A stretch of 64,000 nucleotides of DNA from an uncultured Planctomycetota bacterium (GTDB lineage Bacteria > Planctomycetota > Planctomycetia > Isosphaerales > Isosphaeraceae), in NCBI GenBank assembly GCA_963737655.1, contig CAVTTN010000002.1, positions 4,672,001 through 4,736,000 on the forward strand. Direction: 5' to 3'. The notes under the pieces are model-generated. The model was not told where the DNA came from and searched no databases. It saw only the letters and a list, made by a program, of their open reading frames with translations. Of this stretch, positions 1 to 7,994 are shown piece by piece; positions within the stretch are counted from its first letter, which is position 1, and the number at the start of each line of letters is the position of its first letter. The translations under genes were made by a program, and so were the position numbers.

Positions 1-968
1 TGCTTCTCGCTCGGGAACCGCCCCACGTCGCCGCCGAGCTCGGCCAGGATCACCGTCGCCGTCGTCGCGTCGATCCCCTCGATGGCCGTCAGGTCCACGC
101 CGATCGCCCGGGCCAGCTTGGCCGGGGCGTCGAACCGCACGTCGTTGGCCTTGCGGCCCCTCTTGCGCGGCCTCGGGGCGACCGGCCCGCCCCCGGAGCG
201 GTCGGGCAGGCGGTCCAGCTCCTCGGCGATCCGGGCGTCGCACTCGTCGACCTGGCGGTGGAGGTAGTGGTACAGGTCGGACGCCTGCTTCAGGGCGAAC
301 AGGTGCTCGGGCCGCCAGGTGCCCTCCAGGGCCCGGGCGATCTCCGCCTCGTCCCGGGCGCACCGCTCGTGCCGCAGCGCGGCCAGCTTCGCCGGGTGGC
401 GCTCGCCGGCGAGGATGGCGGCGATGATCGCCGTGCCGGTGACGCCCGTGATGCTGCTGACGACCTCGGTCAGCTTCACATTCATCTGCTCCAAAGCCTT
501 CTGCATGTGCTGGACGTGGTGCGAGGCGTACCGCACGAGCATCTGCCGCTGCCGCCAGTAGCCGCGCAGGGCCAGGACGGCCCCGGGCGGGCGGAAGGAC
601 GGGCGGAGCAGGCCGCAGGCGTGGAGGCGCTGGAGCCACTGGCAGTCGAGCCGGTCGGTCTTGGGCCGGGCGCCGCAGTGGCTGGCCTGGCTCGGCTCGA
701 TGAGGAAGACCTCGAAGCCGCGCGATTCGAGCAGCTCGAACAGGGGGATCCAGTAGACGCCGGTGGACTCCAGGACCACCGAGGTGACGCCCTCGGCCCG
801 GAACCAATCGGCCAGGGCGTGGAGGTCGGCCGAGCAGGCGCCGAAGGTGCGGACCCGTCCGGGCCCGACGCAGGCGACGTGGTTGTCGGAGTGGACGTCG
901 ACGGCGGCGGCGTGGGGGTGGACGACCGGCAGGGACGCGTCGGGATCGGGGGGCGTGCGGCGACTCAT
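1..968 (-). CDS. IS110-family DEDD transposase/recombinase (3' end runs off window; absent from the ORF track)
   Basis: Manual translation from ATG 968: MSRRTPPDPDASLPVVHPHAAAVDVHSD...VVLESTGVYWIPLFELLE...RPKTDRLDCQWLQRLH...HMQKALEQMNVKL...LTAIEGID...ELGGDVGRFPSEK. D-E-D-D catalytic motifs are present and the frame is open to the window edge. Confidence 0.93.
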   Translation of the reverse strand, partial: MSRRTPPDPDASLPVVHPHAAAVDVHSDNHVACVGPGRVRTFGACSADLHALADWFRAEGVTSVVLESTGVYWIPLFELLESRGFEVFLIEPSQASHCGARPKTDRLDCQWLQRLHACGLLRPSFRPPGAVLALRGYWRQRQMLVRYASHHVQHMQKALEQMNVKLTEVVSSITGVTGTAIIAAILAGERHPAKLAALRHERCARDEAEIARALEGTWRPEHLFALKQASDLYHYLHRQVDECDARIAEELDRLPDRSGGGPVAPRPRKRGRKANDVRFDAPAKLARAIGVDLTAIEGIDATTATVILAELGGDVGRFPSEK

Positions 969-984
969 GGCGAGGGCTCCGGCG

Positions 985-1175
985 GGTGGGGGGCCAAGCC
1001 GTCGCGGGCCGAGAGGGGGTCCGGGGACGAGGTAGTCTCCCCGACGGGAACGTCGCGGGGCCGTGTTGACACGGCGCCGCGGGTCACCAATGATGGGGCC
1101 ACGGCCTCTCGGGCCAGGCTAACCTGCGGGCGGCGAGCACCAGGGAGATGACGGCCGGGAGGCTCGCGACGGCGT
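985..1175 (-). ncRNA. Candidate IS110 bridge/seek RNA in the non-coding end (boundaries approximate)
   Basis: Lies upstream of the transposase. Sequence blocks and hairpin positions are conserved with the two mini-elements. Contains CTAACCTG (1119-1126) matching the attC target. A TAnnnT -10-like hexamer (TACGCT, minus strand) sits at 1181-1186. Confidence 0.6.
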
Positions 1176-1253
1176 GCCCCAGCGTATCGCGCCCGGTGGT
1201 CGGGGCCACCCCCGGTTCACGTCCGTCGGGGAGCGGTCGCAGGCCGCGCGGAG

Positions 1254-1352
1254 AGTTAACCTGGCGCTGCAGCGGACCCGGCCACGCGGGCGGTTCTGGG
1301 AATGCGGATGTCGCTGGGATGTGGCCGGGTCCGCTGAGCTTGGCTGTTAGGC
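1254..1352 (+). other. attC site 1 (integron cassette recombination site)
   Basis: TAAC (1257-1260), GCTGCAGCGGACCCGGCCAC ... GTGGCCGGGTCCGCTGAGC, GTTAGGC (1346-1352). R''/L''/L'/R' layout with an extrahelical G in L''. Confidence 0.9.
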
Positions 1353-1374
1353 GGCGTCAGCCGAGCGTGGGGGC

Positions 1375-1806
1375 ATGATGGGCATCGAGCACGTTGACGG
1401 GACCGTCCCCCATCGGACGCGGAAGATGCCCTTTGTGCGCTTCCGCCTTCGCACGCTGATCGCCGTGGTCGCCCTGCTCGCCGGGCTGCTCGCGACATGG
1501 CGAGCCGTCTCCTATCACCTCGCTTACGCTCGCAAGGTCGAATACTCCCGGGATTGGGCGAGGAGCAGCCTGCTCGCGGCGGAGTCCTACCGCAAGCGGG
1601 CTTCCGAACCGGACTGCCCGGCGAAGGATGCCGCCGAGTTGCGATGGCTGGCCAGGAAGGAGGAGCTGATCTCGCGGAGATACGCCGAGATCGCCGCTCA
1701 GCCTTGGCGCCCCTACCCGACGGCGAGTGCCCCTCTTCTGACGCGCCAGGACTGGGACCAGCTCGGAGCCTTCCCGGGCCGGCCACCCGCCCAAGCCGGG
1801 CGCTGA
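1375..1806 (+). CDS. Gene cassette 1: hypothetical protein with N-terminal membrane anchor (start may be 1426)
   Basis: Single ORF between attC1 and attC2. RFRLRTLIAVVALLAGLLA is a basic-hydrophobic N-terminus common in planctomycete small proteins. Confidence 0.7.
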   Translation: MMGIEHVDGTVPHRTRKMPFVRFRLRTLIAVVALLAGLLATWRAVSYHLAYARKVEYSRDWARSSLLAAESYRKRASEPDCPAKDAAELRWLARKEELISRRYAEIAAQPWRPYPTASAPLLTRQDWDQLGAFPGRPPAQAGR

Positions 1807-1842
1807 TCCGAGTCCATCAGCCTTCGGTCGAGACGCTCTCCT

Positions 1843-2221
1843 CTTCGTGAACTCTTTGGCTGGGAACGGCCATCGACGCGCGACACTACCCCAACCCCAG
1901 GCTTTGTGGCCGGGCAGCGGCGAGGTCCGGGTAGCAAACCGACGGATTCAAGAGCGGCGGACGAGGCGCGGGCCGAGAGGGGAGTCGGTTACGCTTGCAG
2001 TCTCTTCGACGGGAACATCCCCGCGAGTCGGCTCGCGGGGCGTCGCCAATGACCGGATCACGACCTCTCGGGCCAGGCTAACCTACGGGCAGGGAGCACC
2101 AAGGTGGAGACGGCCGGGAGGCCCGCGCCACACTCAGGCTACGCCGCGCCGGGTCGGCGGGCAAGTCGTCCCCGACCCCCGTTCACGCCCCGTCGGGAGC
2201 GGACGAAGGCCGCAGGATGGT
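1843..2221 (-). mobile_element. Non-autonomous IS110-derived mini-element, copy 1 (379 bp), in R'' of attC2
   Basis: 376/379 identical to 2643-3021. Segment 1967-2225 is homologous to IS non-coding end 1003-1260. Removing it restores TCCTAAC. Confidence 0.85.
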
Positions 2222-2318
2222 TAACCTCGCGCTGCAGCGGACCCCGCACCGCCGCGGCGTCTCTCGTGGTATCATCATCTTCTCGGCGGTGCGGGTCCGC
2301 TGAGCTTTGTCGTTAGGC
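2219..2318 (+). other. attC site 2
   Basis: TAAC (2222-2225), GCTGCAGCGGACCCCGCACCGCCG ... CGGCGGTGCGGGTCCGCTGAGC, GTTAGGC (2312-2318). Confidence 0.9.
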
Positions 2319-2341
2319 GGCGTTCATCGCGGGGGGTGCGC

Positions 2342-2650
2342 ATGCCCGATCCGAGTTCGCTCCTGATCTTCAGCGAGGACGAGGCGCGGCCGCTTGAGGC
2401 ATACAATCGCTTCGTCGGGACGCTCCCCCCGGAATTGCAGCAACAGCTAAGGGCGGTGCTGATGAGCTATCTGGGCGCTTACGGCCCCGTGGAGACTCTG
2501 GAGCGATTCCGCGGCCGTACCCTCGCCCAAGTGCTGGAGGATTACCATCCGCCCAGCGAGCCGCCGGTCGTGAAGTCCGGCGAACTGGACGGGGTGCGTT
2601 ATACGCTGGACGATCGGCCCGGTTCCGGTGGCAACCCCGCCTCTTCGTGA
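2342..2650 (+). CDS. Gene cassette 2: hypothetical protein
   Basis: Single ORF filling the interval between attC2 and attC3. The inferred original stop is the TAA in the reconstructed GCCTAAC R'' box. Confidence 0.7.
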   Translation: MPDPSSLLIFSEDEARPLEAYNRFVGTLPPELQQQLRAVLMSYLGAYGPVETLERFRGRTLAQVLEDYHPPSEPPVVKSGELDGVRYTLDDRPGSGGNPASS

Positions 2651-3021
2651 ACTCTTTGGCTGGGAACGGCCATCGACGCGCGACACTACCCCAACCCCAG
2701 GCTTTGTGGCCGGGCAGCGACGAAGTCCGGGTAGCAAACCGACGGATTCAAGAGCGGCGGACGAGGCGCGGGCCGAGAGGGGAGTCGGTTACGCTTGCAG
2801 TCTCTTCGGCGGGAACATCCCCGCGAGTCGGCTCGCGGGGCGTCGCCAATGACCGGATCACGACCTCTCGGGCCAGGCTAACCTACGGGCAGGGAGCACC
2901 AAGGTGGAGACGGCCGGGAGGCCCGCGCCACACTCAGGCTACGCCGCGCCGGGTCGGCGGGCAAGTCGTCCCCGACCCCCGTTCACGCCCCGTCGGGAGC
3001 GGACGAAGGCCGCAGGATGGT
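2643..3021 (-). mobile_element. Non-autonomous IS110-derived mini-element, copy 2 (379 bp), in R'' of attC3
   Basis: Direct repeat of copy 1 at an 800-bp offset with 3 substitutions (2720, 2724, 2809). Removing it restores a perfect GCCTAAC. Confidence 0.85.
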
Positions 3022-3117
3022 TAACCTCGCGCTGCAGCGGACCCGGCCACGCGGGCGCGTTATGATCGTGCGGAGCATCCCGGTATGTGGCCGGTCCGCT
3101 GAGCTTATGCGTTGTAC
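3019..3117 (+). other. attC site 3 (last in array)
   Basis: TAAC (3022-3025), GCTGCAGCGGACCCGGCCAC ... GTGGCCGGTCCGCTGAGC, GTTGTAC (3111-3117, non-consensus after GTT). Confidence 0.85.
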
Positions 3118-3231
3118 CTCGTCGGTCGGGCCCTCGCGTGGGTCTCCGGTAAGACGCTCCGAATGGAAGGGGACGGGTGGAGTTTCGAGAGTTTTCGGCC
3201 CGTTCTCCCCGCTGCTATCAGGGCTGGATTC

Positions 3232-3516
3232 TCAAAACCGGACCCGGCCCAGGACGACGAAATCGGTCAGGGCCCGGCCCATCACGGCCCCCCGCTCGGC
3301 ACCCAGGACGGCCCTTGCGAACGGCTCGAACCCGGGCTCGCCCGCCCGGCCCCTCTGGAGCCATCGGTAGAGCGTCGAGGCCCCGACGCCGGACGCCTCC
3401 GCCGCGGCCTCGCGGGACTTCCCCTCGGAGATCGCCGCCACGATCGACAGGGCGGCCCCGGGGGTGAACTTCGAGGGCCGCCCTCCCCTATGCTGCTTCG
3501 GTTTCGCTCTCGGCAT
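3232..3516 (-). CDS. HTH protein, terminase-small-subunit-like
   Basis: GGRPSKFTP...AAAEASGVGASTLYRWL: GRPSK plus HTH, a pattern seen in TerS N-termini. Confidence 0.55.
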   Translation of the reverse strand: MPRAKPKQHRGGRPSKFTPGAALSIVAAISEGKSREAAAEASGVGASTLYRWLQRGRAGEPGFEPFARAVLGAERGAVMGRALTDFVVLGRVRF

Positions 3517-3524
3517 GGCCCGGT

Positions 3525-3830
3525 TCACCTCTGCCTCGGGCCGATCTTGTCCGTCCACTTGCCCCGGTAGTCGGCCAGCCATCCGGCGATCACCGCGTCC
3601 ATCGCGTCGGCGTCGGGCCCCTTGAGCCGGGCCTGGAGGTCGTCCAGGGCCGCGGCGCCGTCGGTGCCTCGGGGGACTTCGACCACCCCGGAGCGGATCG
3701 TCAGGACCACCCCGGCCCGCTCGCACTCGGGCCTTCCTCGGGTCACGGCCAGGGCGTGGAGGAGCTGCCCGCGCCTCGCCCCCCCGGCGGCCCGCTCCAG
3801 GCGCCCGAGCCTGCCCTGGAGACTCGCCAT
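3525..3830 (-). CDS. Hypothetical protein of the element
   Basis: MASLQGRLGRLER N-terminus; tightly packed in the minus-strand gene run. Confidence 0.55.
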   Translation of the reverse strand: MASLQGRLGRLERAAGGARRGQLLHALAVTRGRPECERAGVVLTIRSGVVEVPRGTDGAAALDDLQARLKGPDADAMDAVIAGWLADYRGKWTDKIGPRQR

Positions 3831-3855
3831 CAAGTTGCCTCCCCAGGAACCCCGG

Positions 3856-4068
3856 TCAGTCGATGATGCCGTGCCGCCTGAACGCCGCGACCATCAGCCG
3901 GGCGGCCTCGACGTCGCTCCGGTCGAAGGCATCCGCCACGGCCAACAGCTCCTCATTGGTCAGGGCCCGGATGCCCCGGAGATACTTCCGCCGGGACAAC
4001 CTGCGGACGATGCCGACGGGGCTCCAGGAGTCCTCCAGGCGCCGGACGCGCCCCTCGGCCCGGCTCAC
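3856..4068 (-). CDS. Small hypothetical protein
   Basis: GTG start, SRAEGRVRRLED...; same RxxRLE N-terminal pattern as its neighbour. Confidence 0.45.
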   Translation of the reverse strand: MSRAEGRVRRLEDSWSPVGIVRRLSRRKYLRGIRALTNEELLAVADAFDRSDVEAARLMVAAFRRHGIID

Positions 4069-4465
4069 GACTCGTCTCCCCCTCGTGCTTCTGGTCGGCC
4101 GCGACCTGCTCCAGGAAGGCGATCCGGGCGTCCAGCTCGACGTGGGTCCGTAGCTTGACGGCGGAGTCCAGGACGGCGACAGCGGCCCGGAGCCGGATGG
4201 CCGGGGACGGGTCGGCCAGGAGCTTGTCGAGGGCGGCGGTGGCCCTGGCGGCAGAACGGGCGAGCCGACCGACGGACCGCTCGAAGATGTCGCCACGAAC
4301 CCGGGCGACATAGGAGCAGAACTCGGGCTTGTCCAGCCAATCGTAGACCGTCCGCTCGCCGGCCTTGACCGCCTTGGCCGTGGCCCGGACGGGCCTGCCC
4401 GAGGCGAGCAGCAGGGCGGCCCTCTGCTGCTTGGGGGTCCAGTCTGCGGTGGCATGCGGTGGCAT
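3953..4465 (-). CDS. HTH protein (phBC6A51/TerS-like); true stop may be near 4065
   Basis: WTPKQQRAALLLASG...TAKAVKAGERTVYDWL...PAIRLRAAVAVLD...ELDARIAFLE. Confidence 0.6.
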   Translation of the reverse strand: MPPHATADWTPKQQRAALLLASGRPVRATAKAVKAGERTVYDWLDKPEFCSYVARVRGDIFERSVGRLARSAARATAALDKLLADPSPAIRLRAAVAVLDSAVKLRTHVELDARIAFLEQVAADQKHEGETSREPGRGARPAPGGLLEPRRHRPQVVPAEVSPGHPGPDQ

Positions 4466-4721
4466 GCGGAAATCTCGCATCAGATCGATAACCGGCCAAC
4501 CTCTGCATGCTTGATCGTACAAGCCAGGTTGCGGTTCGTCCAATGGCGACTTGGCCGCCCACCCGCTCGCCGGTCCGATGGACGGAAGCGGTCGGAGGCC
4601 ATAGAGTGGGAAGCATCGGGTCGGTCTCGGGGGTGGCCACCCCCGGGCCTCACGGTCCCGGTCGTCGCGTCGGCCCCACTCCGCCGCGACGGGCGGGACC
4701 GGCCCGAGAGGAGTGGGGAAC

Positions 4722-6120
4722 ATGCCCGAACCCTGGCATCGGCCTCTGGCCGTGCTGCGCGACGAATTCGCCCGACGCTCGGCCGACCTCCGGCATCTGT
4801 TGGTCAGGATCGAACGGAATTCCTACATCGTGCCCCCCGAATGGTGGCAGGCCAGGCCCGGCGAGGAATATTCGCGCCGGGGCCTCCCCGACGAGGCCAT
4901 GTGGCGGATCGAACCCGGCGGGCGCGCCCCCCGTCCGGTCATCATACAACAGACCGAGGACGGTTCGTCCTTCATGTGGAAGCACACGTTCTATGGCCAT
5001 GCCCCCGAGGCTCGAGACTTCTTCATCGACCTCGCCTACCGGGCGTTCCGATGCCTCGCCTCCGCCCCCGCAGGTGAATTTGCACGGCTCGCGGAAGTCC
5101 TAAGAATGTCCATCGATCCGCCGGACCTCGACTACCATAGCCCGGATCTTTGGTGGTTGCGTGCGGTTCACGAGATTGCACGGCGGCGGCATGAAGGCTC
5201 CTCCCTCTGGTCACTCAGCGGGCCGTCCAGTCAATTCCATAGCGTGGAACAAGACCTCCAGTCCCAACGACGTGCCCGAGAGCGAGGGGAAACGGTCGGT
5301 TACGACTTCGGCTACTCGATCCTGCACGGACGTTTTCACTTGCTCGGCGGAGGCCATCGACCTCACCCTCAAGGCCGCCCCGCCCCAGCATTACCCGGCG
5401 ATCGACCGATTCGCCTTCCGGTTTCTCCTGGAGACGATCGATGGCCGTTACTTCCTGTTGGGTGCTCTGCATGATTCTTGGGAGCGCTCCGGGGAGGGAA
5501 CTGGCCCGCCCCAATTTCAGTATCGAGAGATCGCCGACGACGCCGCCCTCGCCTTGCTCGTGGAATCGGGGCTCGCCGACGACCTATCGATTCATCTCCG
5601 AGACGTCCTCGAATGGAACCTCGATCCTTCACGATTGGGTGAACGCGCTGGCTTGTCGGTTGACGCGGGACCAGTGATCCCATCGATTCCGACCGAAGGT
5701 GGAACGGTCCGTCCGCTCAATCCGACAGGGGCCCGCTCTCAGGCCGAAGCGGGCGACTCGCGGGAGGAGGGCGAAGAGCCCGGGCGGGGAGCCGATCTTC
5801 CGGGGATCAGCGCGGCGCCGGGCCTCCCGTCGCCAGATGAGGCCCCGGGCTCCAGCCTCAGGACCCGGTCGAAGCCCGATTCTTTGAACCCGGGCGTGAA
5901 AGCCGTCGCCGCCGCTTACGCATTGCAGGAAGAGGGGTTACCGGTGTCGCTCAAAGCCGCCTGTGAACGCGCAGGAGTGGATCGGAAGAACGTCCGGGAG
6001 CGATACCCGGAGCAAGTCCGCGTGATTCGAGCCCTATCCGCCCCCGATGGTGACGCACGGCGGGGGACGATCGATCGGAGGAGCGGGAATATCGACGCTG
6101 GATATGAGGACGACGAATAG
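4722..6120 (+). CDS. Hypothetical protein with C-terminal HTH-like segment, split over two frames (shift near 5300-5340)
   Basis: Overlapping ORFs 4713-5474 and 5161-6120 each look protein-like in only one half; C-terminal SLKAACERAGVDRKNVRERYP. Confidence 0.45.
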
Positions 6121-6275
6121 GCCCCACCCCACGAAAACACCCCACGGAATTTTCTTGTAGCCCGGAAATCAAGGCGAATGGATGACCCTCCACCCCCCAC
6201 GGCCCCCCCACCCCGCCGGTAGGTCGTGGCCGTCGCGATTGTGACGATGGCCCCGCCCCGGGAGACCCGTGGATC

Positions 6276-6467
6276 ATGGCCAAAGCCCGTCCGCCCGATG
6301 ATTTCAACAACTCCCCGATCGCGTGGTTCGCCGAATTTCTGCATGCTTTGGATGGACGAGACGTCGAGCAAGCCGCCCGAGCGAAGGCCGAACTGACCCG
6401 CTTGGGCTGGACTTTCCGGTATCGGAAGCCCCGCCCCGAGGCCGATGGCCAGGCGGTGGCCCGATGA
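6276..6467 (+). CDS. Small hypothetical protein
   Basis: 63-aa ORF immediately before the AlpA-like gene. Confidence 0.5.
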   Translation: MAKARPPDDFNNSPIAWFAEFLHALDGRDVEQAARAKAELTRLGWTFRYRKPRPEADGQAVAR

Positions 6468-6765
6468 CTCCCCGTCCCGGCCGCCGGACCCGACCGACCG
6501 CCAATCTGATCCAAGAGGCCAATCGACCAAAGGCGGCCGAACCGCCCCTCGGGGCGCCCCCCTCGGACCTGACATCCCTGCCCTGGGCGGTAGGCTCACG
6601 GTCCGCCTGGACGAATTACCCGCTGCCCTCGGAGTGTCGCGGCGGACCATCGAACGCGAGAGGTCCGCCGGCCGATTCCCCAAGCCCGACCTGACGATCG
6701 GGAAGATGCCGCTCTGGCAGCCCCAGACGATCCGAGATTGGATCGCGGGGGGTGGGCGTTCATGA
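6445..6765 (+). CDS. AlpA/Xis-like HTH (excisionase candidate); start uncertain
   Basis: VRLDELPAALGVSRRTIERERSAGRFPKPDLTIGKMPLWQPQTIRDWI; ATGA-coupled to the helicase. Confidence 0.8.
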   Translation: MARRWPDDSPSRPPDPTDRQSDPRGQSTKGGRTAPRGAPLGPDIPALGGRLTVRLDELPAALGVSRRTIERERSAGRFPKPDLTIGKMPLWQPQTIRDWIAGGGRS

Positions 6766-7994
6766 TCCGCCCCTATGACGCCTGGATCCTCGCCCGCCTC
6801 GTCTGCGGCCATTCGCTCAACGGCGAACTGGAATCGGTTTCCCCGGCCCTACGGGGAATCGCCGATCATCTGGCCGGGCTTCCCGACGAAGACCGCCAGA
6901 CGGCCCTCGGGGGATTCCGTTGCTCGCCCGCGATCGACGGCCCCGCCTTGATCAAGGCGATGACCGCTCACCACCCCGATGGACCGGCCCCCGAGTCGGT
7001 CCATGAGCGATGCTATGCAACCCTCGACGACATCGCCCGGGTCGTCGCCGATCAAGCGTGGCTCTGGGGAGACTGGCTCGCCCGGGGCGTCCTGAACGTG
7101 GTGGCCTCCGAGCCGGGGACGGGCAAGACCCGATTCGGACTGGACCTGGCCCGTCGGCTCTGGTTTGGCTTGTCGTGGCCTGACAACCAATTGAATGTGA
7201 TGCCCGGGGGGACGCGGACCCTGTGGATTCAGGGCGACCGCAACTTCGCCGAGATGCTCCAAGCCGCCCGCGACTTCGGACTCCCCGGCGACGCCGTGTC
7301 CCTGGGATCGGCCCCCGACGACCCGACCGGGGCGCTCGACCTGGACGACCCGGGAACGCTGGCGGCCATCGGGGGGAGGATCCAGGCCGCCGCCCCGGCC
7401 CTCGTGGTGATCGACACGGTAGGCATGGTGACCGATCGGAACCTCTGCCGCCCCGAAGAAGCCCGCGCATTCTTCGCCCCGATCATGGAACTTGCCGCGA
7501 GGACGGGCGTGGCCTTCCTCGGTCTGACCCATTTGTCGAAGGACAAGGAGGCCCTGGGTCGGCGGATCGTCGAGAAGGCCAGGGTGGTCATCAAGATGAC
7601 GCAGCCCGATCCCGAAGGCAAGAAGGACCGCCGGAGGTTGTGGGTGGACAAGTCCGCCGTTGTGAAGCCCCCGCCCTTGGGGATCACGATGGGGGACGCG
7701 GGCAACAATTACGACTTCACTCCGCCGACGGAGCCCGAGCCGAATCGGGGGGGACGGCCGCCGGAGAAGCTCGGCAAGGCCATCAAGTTCCTGGCGGAGA
7801 AACTGACCGAGGGAGACCGCAAATGGTGCGATCTGGTCAACGAATGGGAAGCGCTCGGGGGGGCCAAGGGGACCCTCTTCAATGCCTGCAAGGCGATGGT
7901 CGACGACGGTCGGATGGTCGTTGATGAGTCCAAGAAGCCCAAGTTCTGCCACCTGGTCAAGGACTCCGAGGAAGGTCAAGAACACGGTTCCTGA
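6762..7994 (+). CDS. AAA_25/RepA-type replicative helicase-ATPase
   Basis: WLWGDWLARG, Walker A ASEPGTGKT, Walker B LVVIDT, LTHLSK. Confidence 0.85.
   Translation: MIRPYDAWILARLVCGHSLNGELESVSPALRGIADHLAGLPDEDRQTALGGFRCSPAIDGPALIKAMTAHHPDGPAPESVHERCYATLDDIARVVADQAWLWGDWLARGVLNVVASEPGTGKTRFGLDLARRLWFGLSWPDNQLNVMPGGTRTLWIQGDRNFAEMLQAARDFGLPGDAVSLGSAPDDPTGALDLDDPGTLAAIGGRIQAAAPALVVIDTVGMVTDRNLCRPEEARAFFAPIMELAARTGVAFLGLTHLSKDKEALGRRIVEKARVVIKMTQPDPEGKKDRRRLWVDKSAVVKPPPLGITMGDAGNNYDFTPPTEPEPNRGGRPPEKLGKAIKFLAEKLTEGDRKWCDLVNEWEALGGAKGTLFNACKAMVDDGRMVVDESKKPKFCHLVKDSEEGQEHGS

What the first reader, a model, noticed from the sequence alone, without database searches (positions are those of the whole stretch)
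985..1256. Structure is conserved while sequence diverges between the IS end and the mini-elements
Seen: both have a long-range pairing of GGCCGAGAGG with CCTCTCGGGCC. Between GGGAAC and GTCRCCAATGA both have a hairpin of unrelated sequence (IS CCGTGT-TG-ACACGG; mini CCCCGCGAG-TCGG-CTCGCGGGG). Both have a minus-strand TAnnnT at the equivalent position (TACGCT 1181-1186; TAGCCT 2136-2141). Inference: a transcribed ~190-nt structured RNA in which the donor-matching segment is nested inside the stem next to the target-matching segment, unlike the two side-by-side loops of the IS621 bridge RNA. The divergence also implies that the minis derive from a related IS, not from this copy.
Basis: partly seen in the sequence, partly recalled or inferred. 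Interest (0 to 1): 0.7.

Follow-up and report, generated by a model that had tools for sequence, protein, structure and literature searches.

The report
Bridge RNA shared with parasitic mini-elements
This stretch encodes the guide ("bridge") RNA of an IS110 jumping gene that inserts into integron cassette sites, and small transposase-less copies carry their own version of that RNA, with a guide rewritten to match their own end, which may let them borrow the enzyme and outnumber it.

Summary
The features are real: 985-1256 is the left end of an IS110 element and encodes, on the minus strand, a ~178-nt bridge RNA with conserved, covarying structure and a conserved -10-like box (53 of 62 aligned sequences). 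The long guides lie on the 3' strand of each loop (IS1111 order) and covary with insertion flanks (24 of 28) and element ends (43 of 50); the 5' donor strand matches nothing. All 8 IS ends and 28 minis in the genome sit at the R'' box of attC sites. Minis are a separate lineage, not deletions of this copy, and their donor guide and right end differ from the IS by the same two bases. The IS hairpin loop also forms a plus-strand TTGACA-17-AATGAT promoter facing the next cassette. Closest known: ISPpu9/MITEPpu9 (Ssr9). Expression is untested. The scan noted attC-targeting IS110 bridge RNAs on other DNA before; I saw no note on such minis.

The parts
1..968 (-). IS110 transposase, N-terminal 322 of 450 aa (runs off the window; whole ORF intact in the genome)
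   Evidence: PF01548; translation; E67, D105, D108 and S337 align with the IS621 catalytic residues
969..1257 (-). Left end (upstream non-coding region) of the IS, up to the 2-nt core at 1256-1257
   Evidence: 8 copies end at the same base before TAAC
998..1173 (-). Predicted bridge RNA core, closed by stem P1 (1163-1173 with 998-1008)
   Evidence: 9 of 11 P1 pairs compensatory; fold z=-3.0
1143..1151 (-). Target loop, 5' strand (weak guide for the right flank)
   Evidence: weak covariation, register unresolved
1119..1125 (-). Target loop, 3' strand: 7-nt guide AGGUUAG matching attC R'' and the core
1105..1111 (-).
1090..1098 (-). Donor loop, 5' strand; no match to the left end found
   Evidence: p=0.43, n=23
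1060..1075 (-). Variable hairpin capping the donor arm
1037..1043 (-). Donor loop, 3' strand: 7-nt guide CGGGGAG, identical to the IS right end plus core
1181..1186 (-). -10-like box; predicted start about 1174
   Evidence: transcription not shown
1066..1094 (+). Outward sigma70-type promoter candidate TTGACA-17-AATGAT, overlapping the donor arm and facing the next cassette
1215..1247 (-). Conserved left-end box: small hairpin (1233-1247), 11-nt complement of the donor-guide region (1223-1233) and GTGAAC (1215-1220), inverted to GTTCAC in the right end
1257..1352 (+). attC site interrupted at its R'' box by the IS
   Evidence: integron integrase elsewhere in the genome
1375..1806 (+). Cassette ORF (143 aa, no Pfam match) downstream of the outward promoter candidate
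1841..2222 (-). Mini-element 1 (382 bp with both cores): left end, complete bridge RNA (about 1963-2130), right end, no transposase
2002..2008 (-). Mini donor guide CGAAGAG, identical to the mini's own right end (1841-1847)
2078..2084 (-). Mini target guide AGGUUAG
2222..2318 (+). attC site carrying mini 1
2641..3022 (-). Mini-element 2 (99% identical to mini 1), also at an attC R'' box

Best explanation
The region is the bridge-RNA gene of an IS110-group element of the ISPpu9 type that targets integron attC sites. A promoter inside the left end (-10 at 1181-1186; inferred) makes a minus-strand RNA that folds into a three-way junction: an outer stem closes two arms of the same build, each an internal loop framed by CCG and UGG motifs (shown by covariation). 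The 3' strand of the first loop spells the left flank plus core, the 3' strand of the second spells the element's right end plus core (shown by covariation with flanks and ends). The transposase uses these loops to excise or copy out a circle and to insert it just before TAAC of the attC R'' box, antisense to the cassettes (chemistry inferred from IS621; the junctions fit a crossover 3' of an NT core when the plus strand is taken as the IS621 'top' strand). The left end is probably recognised by protein or by its DNA hairpin/GTGAAC box, not by RNA pairing (inferred from the lack of a match). The minis are non-autonomous elements from a related, unsampled IS lineage; they keep a whole bridge RNA whose donor guide matches their own right end and most likely borrow the resident transposase in trans (inferred).
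For: Structure: 91.6% of cells paired vs 85.3 shuffled, 16 of 36 pairs compensatory, slid controls 38-49%; on 38 further model hits 92.0% vs 71.6, 27 of 35 pairs (alignment fitted to the model). Target guide: 19 of 28 distinct guides match the flank 6/6 and 24 of 28 at least 5/6, vs 0.76 and 3.5 in shuffles. Donor guide equals right-end 7-mer in 43 of 50. In this genome all 35 occupied attC hits read AGGTTA; 13 GGGTTA sites (5 distinct) are empty. One cassette is present both filled and empty, fixing the junction. Integron integrase above cut-off beside one array. Minis form their own branch (100/100), the IS is nearer to elements of other genomes. ISPpu9 has a 43-nt left box with a hairpin, an AG core, an internal promoter starting about 85 nt in, and a MITE with a changed right end (PMC12288879, PMC8450116).
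Against: No transcript data. Neither -10 box has a -35 and the consensus scan does not call them. Unaided RNAalifold recovered only the outer stem and the target arm, not P3 or the donor arm, and the single-sequence MFE of the IS RNA differs from the model (the mini's agrees in outline). The CCG/UGG stems are nearly invariant and give little covariation on A1. Right-flank pairing is weak and the 5' donor strand matches nothing. Homologues are related, so shuffle counts are not probabilities. No parent IS with mini-type ends was found, and trans-mobilisation was not shown.
Confidence: 0.85

Rival explanations
1. One reading: the donor segment is tucked inside a stem belonging to the target segment, a topology distinct from two side-by-side loops.
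For: The donor guide does lie inside the P3 stem, and P3 follows the target arm with almost no linker.
Against: The extension that would merge the two has 0 compensatory changes and 8 unpaired rows at its outer pair; those bases covary with the 5' strand of P1. Both loops have the same CCG-9nt / 9nt-UGG frame, 100% paired in the inner stems. A guide in an internal loop of a stem-loop is also the IS621 arrangement (PMC11208160, passages).
Confidence: 0.1
2. The mini RNA is mainly a regulator or decoy (as proposed for Ssr9, a sponge of an antisense RNA); minis move with the IS's own bridge RNA, which could read the mini end through two G-T wobbles.
For: Ssr9 is not needed for ISPpu9 transposition and anneals to Asr9 (PMC12288879 abstract and discussion; PMC8450116 passages). 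The IS has a plus-strand promoter candidate that would make an antisense RNA. A G opposite T is common at the core in this family (20 of 24 left junctions AA, 19 of 24 guides AG).
Against: The mini's donor guide carries exactly the two changes found in its right end, in both genomes that hold it; a pure decoy has no need for that, though it could be inherited from the parent.
Confidence: 0.25
3. The IS hairpin and the 5' donor strand are conserved for a DNA function, an outward promoter that drives the next cassette (or an antisense RNA), as well as or instead of RNA structure.
For: TTGACA(G)-17-AATGAT in 9 of 10 distinct left ends of the close attC clade vs 0 of 84 others, with different spacer sequences; outward promoters are functional in group IIC-attC introns (PMC3001079, passages).
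Against: Those 10 are related and 3 come from this genome; the group was drawn after the motif was seen; minis (0 of 10 variants) and other attC-targeting lineages (L222, L060) lack it; hairpins at this place are kept in elements without it. It is compatible with, not an alternative to, the bridge RNA.
Confidence: 0.5
4. The functional RNA comes from a circle-junction or read-through transcript and is processed; the TAnnnT box is not the promoter.
For: IS621 and ISEc21 use junction promoters. A -10-like hexamer lies about 40 nt inside the right end of this IS and some relatives.
Against: That hexamer is absent from the related genome's mini; the internal box is conserved at a fixed distance in 53 of 62; a transcript across the left end would fold 1223-1233 onto the donor guide; ISPpu9 uses an internal promoter at the same distance.
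Confidence: 0.2

Closest known systems
ISPpu9 and MITEPpu9/Ssr9 of Pseudomonas putida KT2440 (PMC12288879; PMC8450116)
   Same: IS110 group, AG core on the coding strand, 43-nt left box with a hairpin, short inverted motif shared by both ends, internal promoter about 85 nt in, ~180-nt RNA, a transposase-less MITE carrying a similar RNA and a changed right end. Two published primers fit the same guide frame: one ends CCCG-C-GTAGGA (matches the REP flank), one reads as a 7-mer equal to the ISPpu9 right end followed by TGGCCC (compared by eye).
   Different: Target is attC, not REP; minis outnumber the IS 28 to 8 and aim at the same target as the IS; the parts of those papers I read treat Ssr9 as a regulator or hitchhiker and do not map guides in it. 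Transposase identity to ISPpu9 was not measured.
IS621 bridge RNA (PMC11208160; PMC11208158)
   Same: Upstream RNA, two internal loops, 9-nt 5' strand and 7-nt + 2-nt 3' strand, NT core with invariant T, catalytic residues aligned.
   Different: Outer closing stem instead of a 5' stem-loop; element inverted relative to the recombination polarity; long guides on the 3' strands; 5' donor strand unmatched; 450-aa transposase; internal rather than junction promoter (inferred).
IS1111-attC group (ISKpn4, ISPst6, ISPa21, ISPa25) and their seekRNAs (PMC11187229; PMC3001079)
   Same: Insert near the 5' end of attC, antisense to the cassettes; top-strand match 5' of the bottom-strand match.
   Different: Their RNA lies downstream of a 330-350-aa transposase; here it lies upstream of a 450-aa one.
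Group IIC-attC introns (PMC3001079)
   Same: Antisense insertion into attC with an outward promoter embedded in a structured RNA gene.
   Different: Retroelement chemistry; their promoters were assayed, this one is only predicted.

Membership tests
IS110 family bridge recombinase system | DEDD RuvC-like domain plus Tnp domain with catalytic serine | tested here: met
   PF01548, PF02371, alignment to IS621; D24 assigned by motif only
IS110 family bridge recombinase system | Non-coding end with conserved two-loop RNA structure | tested here: met
IS110 family bridge recombinase system | Target loop pairs with both halves of the target | tested here: inconclusive
   one half strong, the other weak with unresolved register
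IS110 family bridge recombinase system | Donor loop pairs with both halves of the donor | tested here: not met
   right end matched in 43 of 50; no match to the left end (p=0.43). This lowers 'IS621-type donor loop', not 'bridge RNA'
IS110 family bridge recombinase system | Site-specific insertion at a 2-nt core without target duplication | tested here: met
   36 ends at one position; filled/empty pair
IS110 family bridge recombinase system | RNA is expressed, binds the transposase, circular intermediate forms | not testable with these tools
   no reads were laid; needs RNA-seq, pull-down, junction PCR
IS110 group (vs IS1111 group) | Long non-coding region upstream of the transposase | tested here: met
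   288-nt left end holds the RNA; right end about 165 nt
IS1111-attC group | seekRNA downstream of a 330-350-aa transposase | tested here: not met
   RNA upstream, 450 aa
IS1111-attC group | Insertion in attC, antisense to cassettes | tested here: met
   exact base compared with ISPst6/ISKpn4 not checked (primary paper not held)
ISPpu9-like subgroup | AG core, 43-nt left box with hairpin, internal promoter | tested here: met
   core and box by sequence; promoter position only
ISPpu9-like subgroup | Transposase similarity to ISPpu9 | not tested
   no ISPpu9-labelled record among the listed rows
MITE (non-autonomous IS derivative) | Short, multicopy, both ends kept, no transposase | tested here: met
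   28 copies of 382 bp, 26 distinct right flanks
MITE (non-autonomous IS derivative) | Mobilised in trans by a resident transposase | not testable with these tools
   6 full-length transposase ORFs with matching end motifs exist in the genome

The most novel reading that the evidence does not exclude
The minis are RNA-level parasites: they supply their own bridge RNA to the IS's transposase, and because their donor guide meets the IS end with two A-C mismatches, every transposase loaded with mini RNA can move only minis. This would explain 28 minis against 8 IS ends in one finite pool of attC sites, and would make Ssr9/MITEPpu9 the same thing (there aimed at the IS's own end). In the IS, the same donor arm doubles as an outward promoter that keeps the next cassette expressed.
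Probability: 0.35. Interest if true: 0.75.

Novelty: new variant of a known kind. Interest (0 to 1): 0.52.

Why it matters
It gives a covariation-backed guide map for a large group of long IS110 transposases (ISPpu9-like) whose RNA I did not find mapped in the papers read: 7-nt guides on the 3' strands and a donor loop that reads only one end, a natural case of the 'half-match' seen in vitro for IS621. The IS/mini pair is a natural orthogonality experiment (same target guide, donor guides two bases apart) that makes competition between guide RNAs for one recombinase directly testable, and it suggests a reinterpretation of Ssr9. About half of the TAAC-bearing attC sites of this genome are occupied, so these elements may shape cassette mobility and expression.

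Tried and rejected
Rfam: no match in 900-3200 at E<=1. RNA runs: no RNA holder listed; no reads were laid. Parent IS with mini-type ends: pattern found in 2 of 121 genomes of the family, all minis or contig ends; the single viral hit is not a bridge RNA; none of the 145 parsed rows has that donor guide, 42 loci were not parsed; the mini right end has no significant match among homologue right ends. A right-end -10 as main promoter: not kept in the related genome's mini. A donor guide for the left end: none; pairing of that strand with the right end was inspected by eye and fails in the minis and distant groups. Handshake pairing: first base C opposite an invariant G in 22 of 24, but both invariant, second base unrelated, so no evidence. 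Sequestration of the donor guide by 1223-1233: mean duplex -14.1 vs -10.1 kcal/mol for shuffles over 44 pairs, a few mis-parsed; perfect in few elements, left open. Literature searches without a description of this architecture or of guide-bearing minis: (open-licence library only). Figures, including the six bridge-RNA structures of PMC11208160 Fig. 6d and the 86 models of 10.64898/2026.10.21.760802, and bioRxiv supplements could not be seen and may already hold this fold.

Full report
What is there. Window 968 to the left edge is the start of an intact 450-aa IS110 transposase on the minus strand; E67, D105, D108 and S337 align with catalytic residues of IS621. The finding covers its upstream non-coding end. 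The genome holds 8 such left ends (6 with full-length ORFs) and 28 copies of a 382-bp element without transposase that is about 70% alike over this region. All 36 left ends abut TAAC of a 93-96-bp imperfect palindrome ending in a GTTRRRY-type box; an integron integrase above the curated cut-off lies beside one array, so these are attC sites (consensus recalled, not from a call). A profile search found 87 attC-like hits: 35 occupied, 35 empty with TAAC, 17 without TAAC at that place; one mini site was missed. One cassette occurs both with and without a mini (400-nt body 99.5% alike), which fixes the junction. Left junctions have the core AA and right junctions AG on the element's strand. Read on the plus strand these are TT and CT, and the junctions fit IS621 chemistry (cut 3' of an NT core with invariant T; PMC11208158, passages) with the element inverted.

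The observation. All three features are in the sequence (see observation check). To test them I gathered homologues, parsed 115 upstream regions at 55% or more transposase identity, reduced them to 63 at 90% and aligned 60 of these with the IS and mini 1 (A1; left out: the genome's own copy and two rows with a bad parse or long insert). A named three-way-junction model gives 91.6% paired cells against 85.3 in shuffles and 38-49% in slid controls, with 9 of 11 outer-stem pairs compensatory. The model was drawn from these sequences, so the slid control is lenient. Single-sequence folds have z=-3.0 for both RNAs; the mini's MFE resembles the model, the IS's does not.

The guides. Each arm is an internal loop framed as CCG, about 9 nt, UGG, the same spacer-between-boxes build described for tigRNAs and bridge RNAs (PMC12045711, passages). 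The 3' strand of the first loop repeats the left flank and core: of 28 distinct guides 19 match 6 of 6 bases and 24 at least 5, against 0.76 and 3.5 in shuffled pairings. Here it is AGGUUAG; all 35 occupied hits read AGGTTA, while 13 sites reading GGGTTA (5 distinct) are empty, as are 20 AGGTTA sites. The 5' strand pairs weakly with the right flank (z 2.4-4.3 on two neighbouring diagonals, n=53). The 3' strand of the second loop equals the last 7 bases of the right end in 43 of 50 elements; two of the seven misses are parsing errors. Its 5' strand shows no relation to the left end (p=0.43, n=23). So the top-strand match lies 5' of the bottom-strand match, the order reported for IS1111 seekRNAs and opposite to IS110-type ones (PMC11187229, passages), although the RNA is upstream. 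[quoted passage not shown] A later preprint reports 86 models, many deviating from IS621 (10.64898/2026.10.21.760802, section 2.4 and passages).

Promoters. TAnnnT sits 26-36 nt before the target arm in 53 of 62 rows (shuffled mean 5.7, maximum 14; 1.9% in coding windows). The predicted start, about 83 nt into the element, matches the mapped ISPpu9 start about 85 nt in (PMC8450116, passages). No -35 is evident and no expression data were obtained. It is present in 9 of 10 distinct left ends of the close attC clade and 0 of 84 others, in 7 of 8 IS copies here and 0 of 10 mini variants; the clade is small, related and was delimited after I saw the motif. It faces the next cassette, like the functional outward promoters of group IIC-attC introns (PMC3001079, passages), or could make an Asr9-like antisense RNA.

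The minis. They keep left box, -10, the whole RNA and a right end. Their donor guide is CGAAGAG where the IS has CGGGGAG, and their right end has the same two changes. A genome of the same genus holds an 83% identical mini with the same ends and guide, also at attC. In a tree of 64 RNA cores the three mini rows form one branch (100/100); the IS is 0.21-0.35 from elements of other genomes, and the nearest non-mini row to the mini is 0.66 away; the deeper branching is unresolved. So they are not deletions of this copy. No parent was found (see tried and rejected). The major mini type here shares a short stretch before the target arm with the resident IS, where 3 minor copies and the other genome's minis differ, which hints at exchange between them. 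Of 14 other loci inspected, 3 are independent transposase-less minis that keep the RNA but have the common donor guide. Only two IS110 types occur in the genome and only this one shares the minis' end motifs, so it is the likely helper (inference). By pairing rules alone, the mini guide meets the IS end with two A-C mismatches, the IS guide meets the mini end with two G-T wobbles; this asymmetry is the basis of the parasite model and is untested. 26 of 28 right flanks are distinct, so most copies are separate insertions.

Comparison. The closest system is ISPpu9 with MITEPpu9/Ssr9 (PMC12288879: abstract, introduction, sections 13, 17, first part of the discussion, supplement part 2; PMC8450116: passages and supplement): AG core, 43-nt left box with hairpin, internal promoter, and a MITE whose right box differs in the last bases. 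Two primers in the supplement fit the guide frame found here, suggesting that Ssr9 is itself a bridge RNA aimed at the ISPpu9 end; this rests on 17-21 nt compared by eye. attC targeting is known for the IS1111-attC group; this scan has noted IS110-group attC elements elsewhere (unchecked notes). One-sided recognition has in vitro precedent (10.64898/2026.08.31.748434, first part). Also consulted: PMC13626964 (abstract), 10.1101/2025.10.25.684509 and 10.64898/2026.08.14.744561 (first parts), 10.64898/2026.03.19.712850 (passages).

Verdict. Observation confirmed; interpretation partly supported. Interest 0.52.

Noticed in passing
G000:C2:4847047-4848545 (L002), and a partial copy at C2:286890-287602: A second IS110 type (about 410 aa, 32% identical, plus strand) sits just after a sequence resembling the attI beside the integrase; its RNA has the same target-arm frame with guide GTGTTAG and a 7-mer equal to its own right end. 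Possibly an attI/R'-targeting IS110.
   Followed up: partly
L060/L267 and L025 (G438), L222: attC R'' targeting with an AGGTT-type guide also occurs in lineages only 57-61% identical to this transposase, so the target seems to have been acquired more than once; G438 holds both an IS and its deletion-type mini.
   Followed up: partly
L270 (G426), L271 (G431): Independent transposase-less minis of about 500 bp that keep the full RNA and both ends.
   Followed up: partly
window 1223-1233 and 1037-1047: An 11-nt perfect inverted repeat between the left-end box and the donor-guide region; a transcript from further upstream would sequester the guide.
   Followed up: partly
G000:C2:284332, 284664, 1673813, 1674144, 1674475, 1969903, 1971777, 1972566, 6778517, 6787364: One short GC-rich cassette is repeated about ten times over four arrays; its attC has the GGGTTA variant and is never occupied.
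   Followed up: no
G000:C2:4298601 and 819744: Two unoccupied attC sites have GGT before TAAC, like a filled site; the first resembles a decayed mini end.
   Followed up: no
G000:C2:1971444 vs 6787901: Insertion changes the R'' box and weakens the folded attC (-30.0 vs -35.6 kcal/mol); two pairs of minis share flanks, so filled cassettes have been copied or moved with the mini.
   Followed up: partly
G000:C2:286713-286890 and the broken IS copy near 6792400: A repeat with AAAAGGGGAC / GTCCCCTTTT arms interrupts an attC and one IS left end; REP- or MITE-like, not studied.
   Followed up: no
G000:C2:4669000-4671100 (just left of the window): Reading frames that look like an IS66-type element precede the IS (label recalled, not tested).
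   Followed up: no
window 3232-7994: Small helix-turn-helix-like ORFs and an AAA_25 protein follow the last attC, suggestive of an integrated element's replication module.
   Followed up: no
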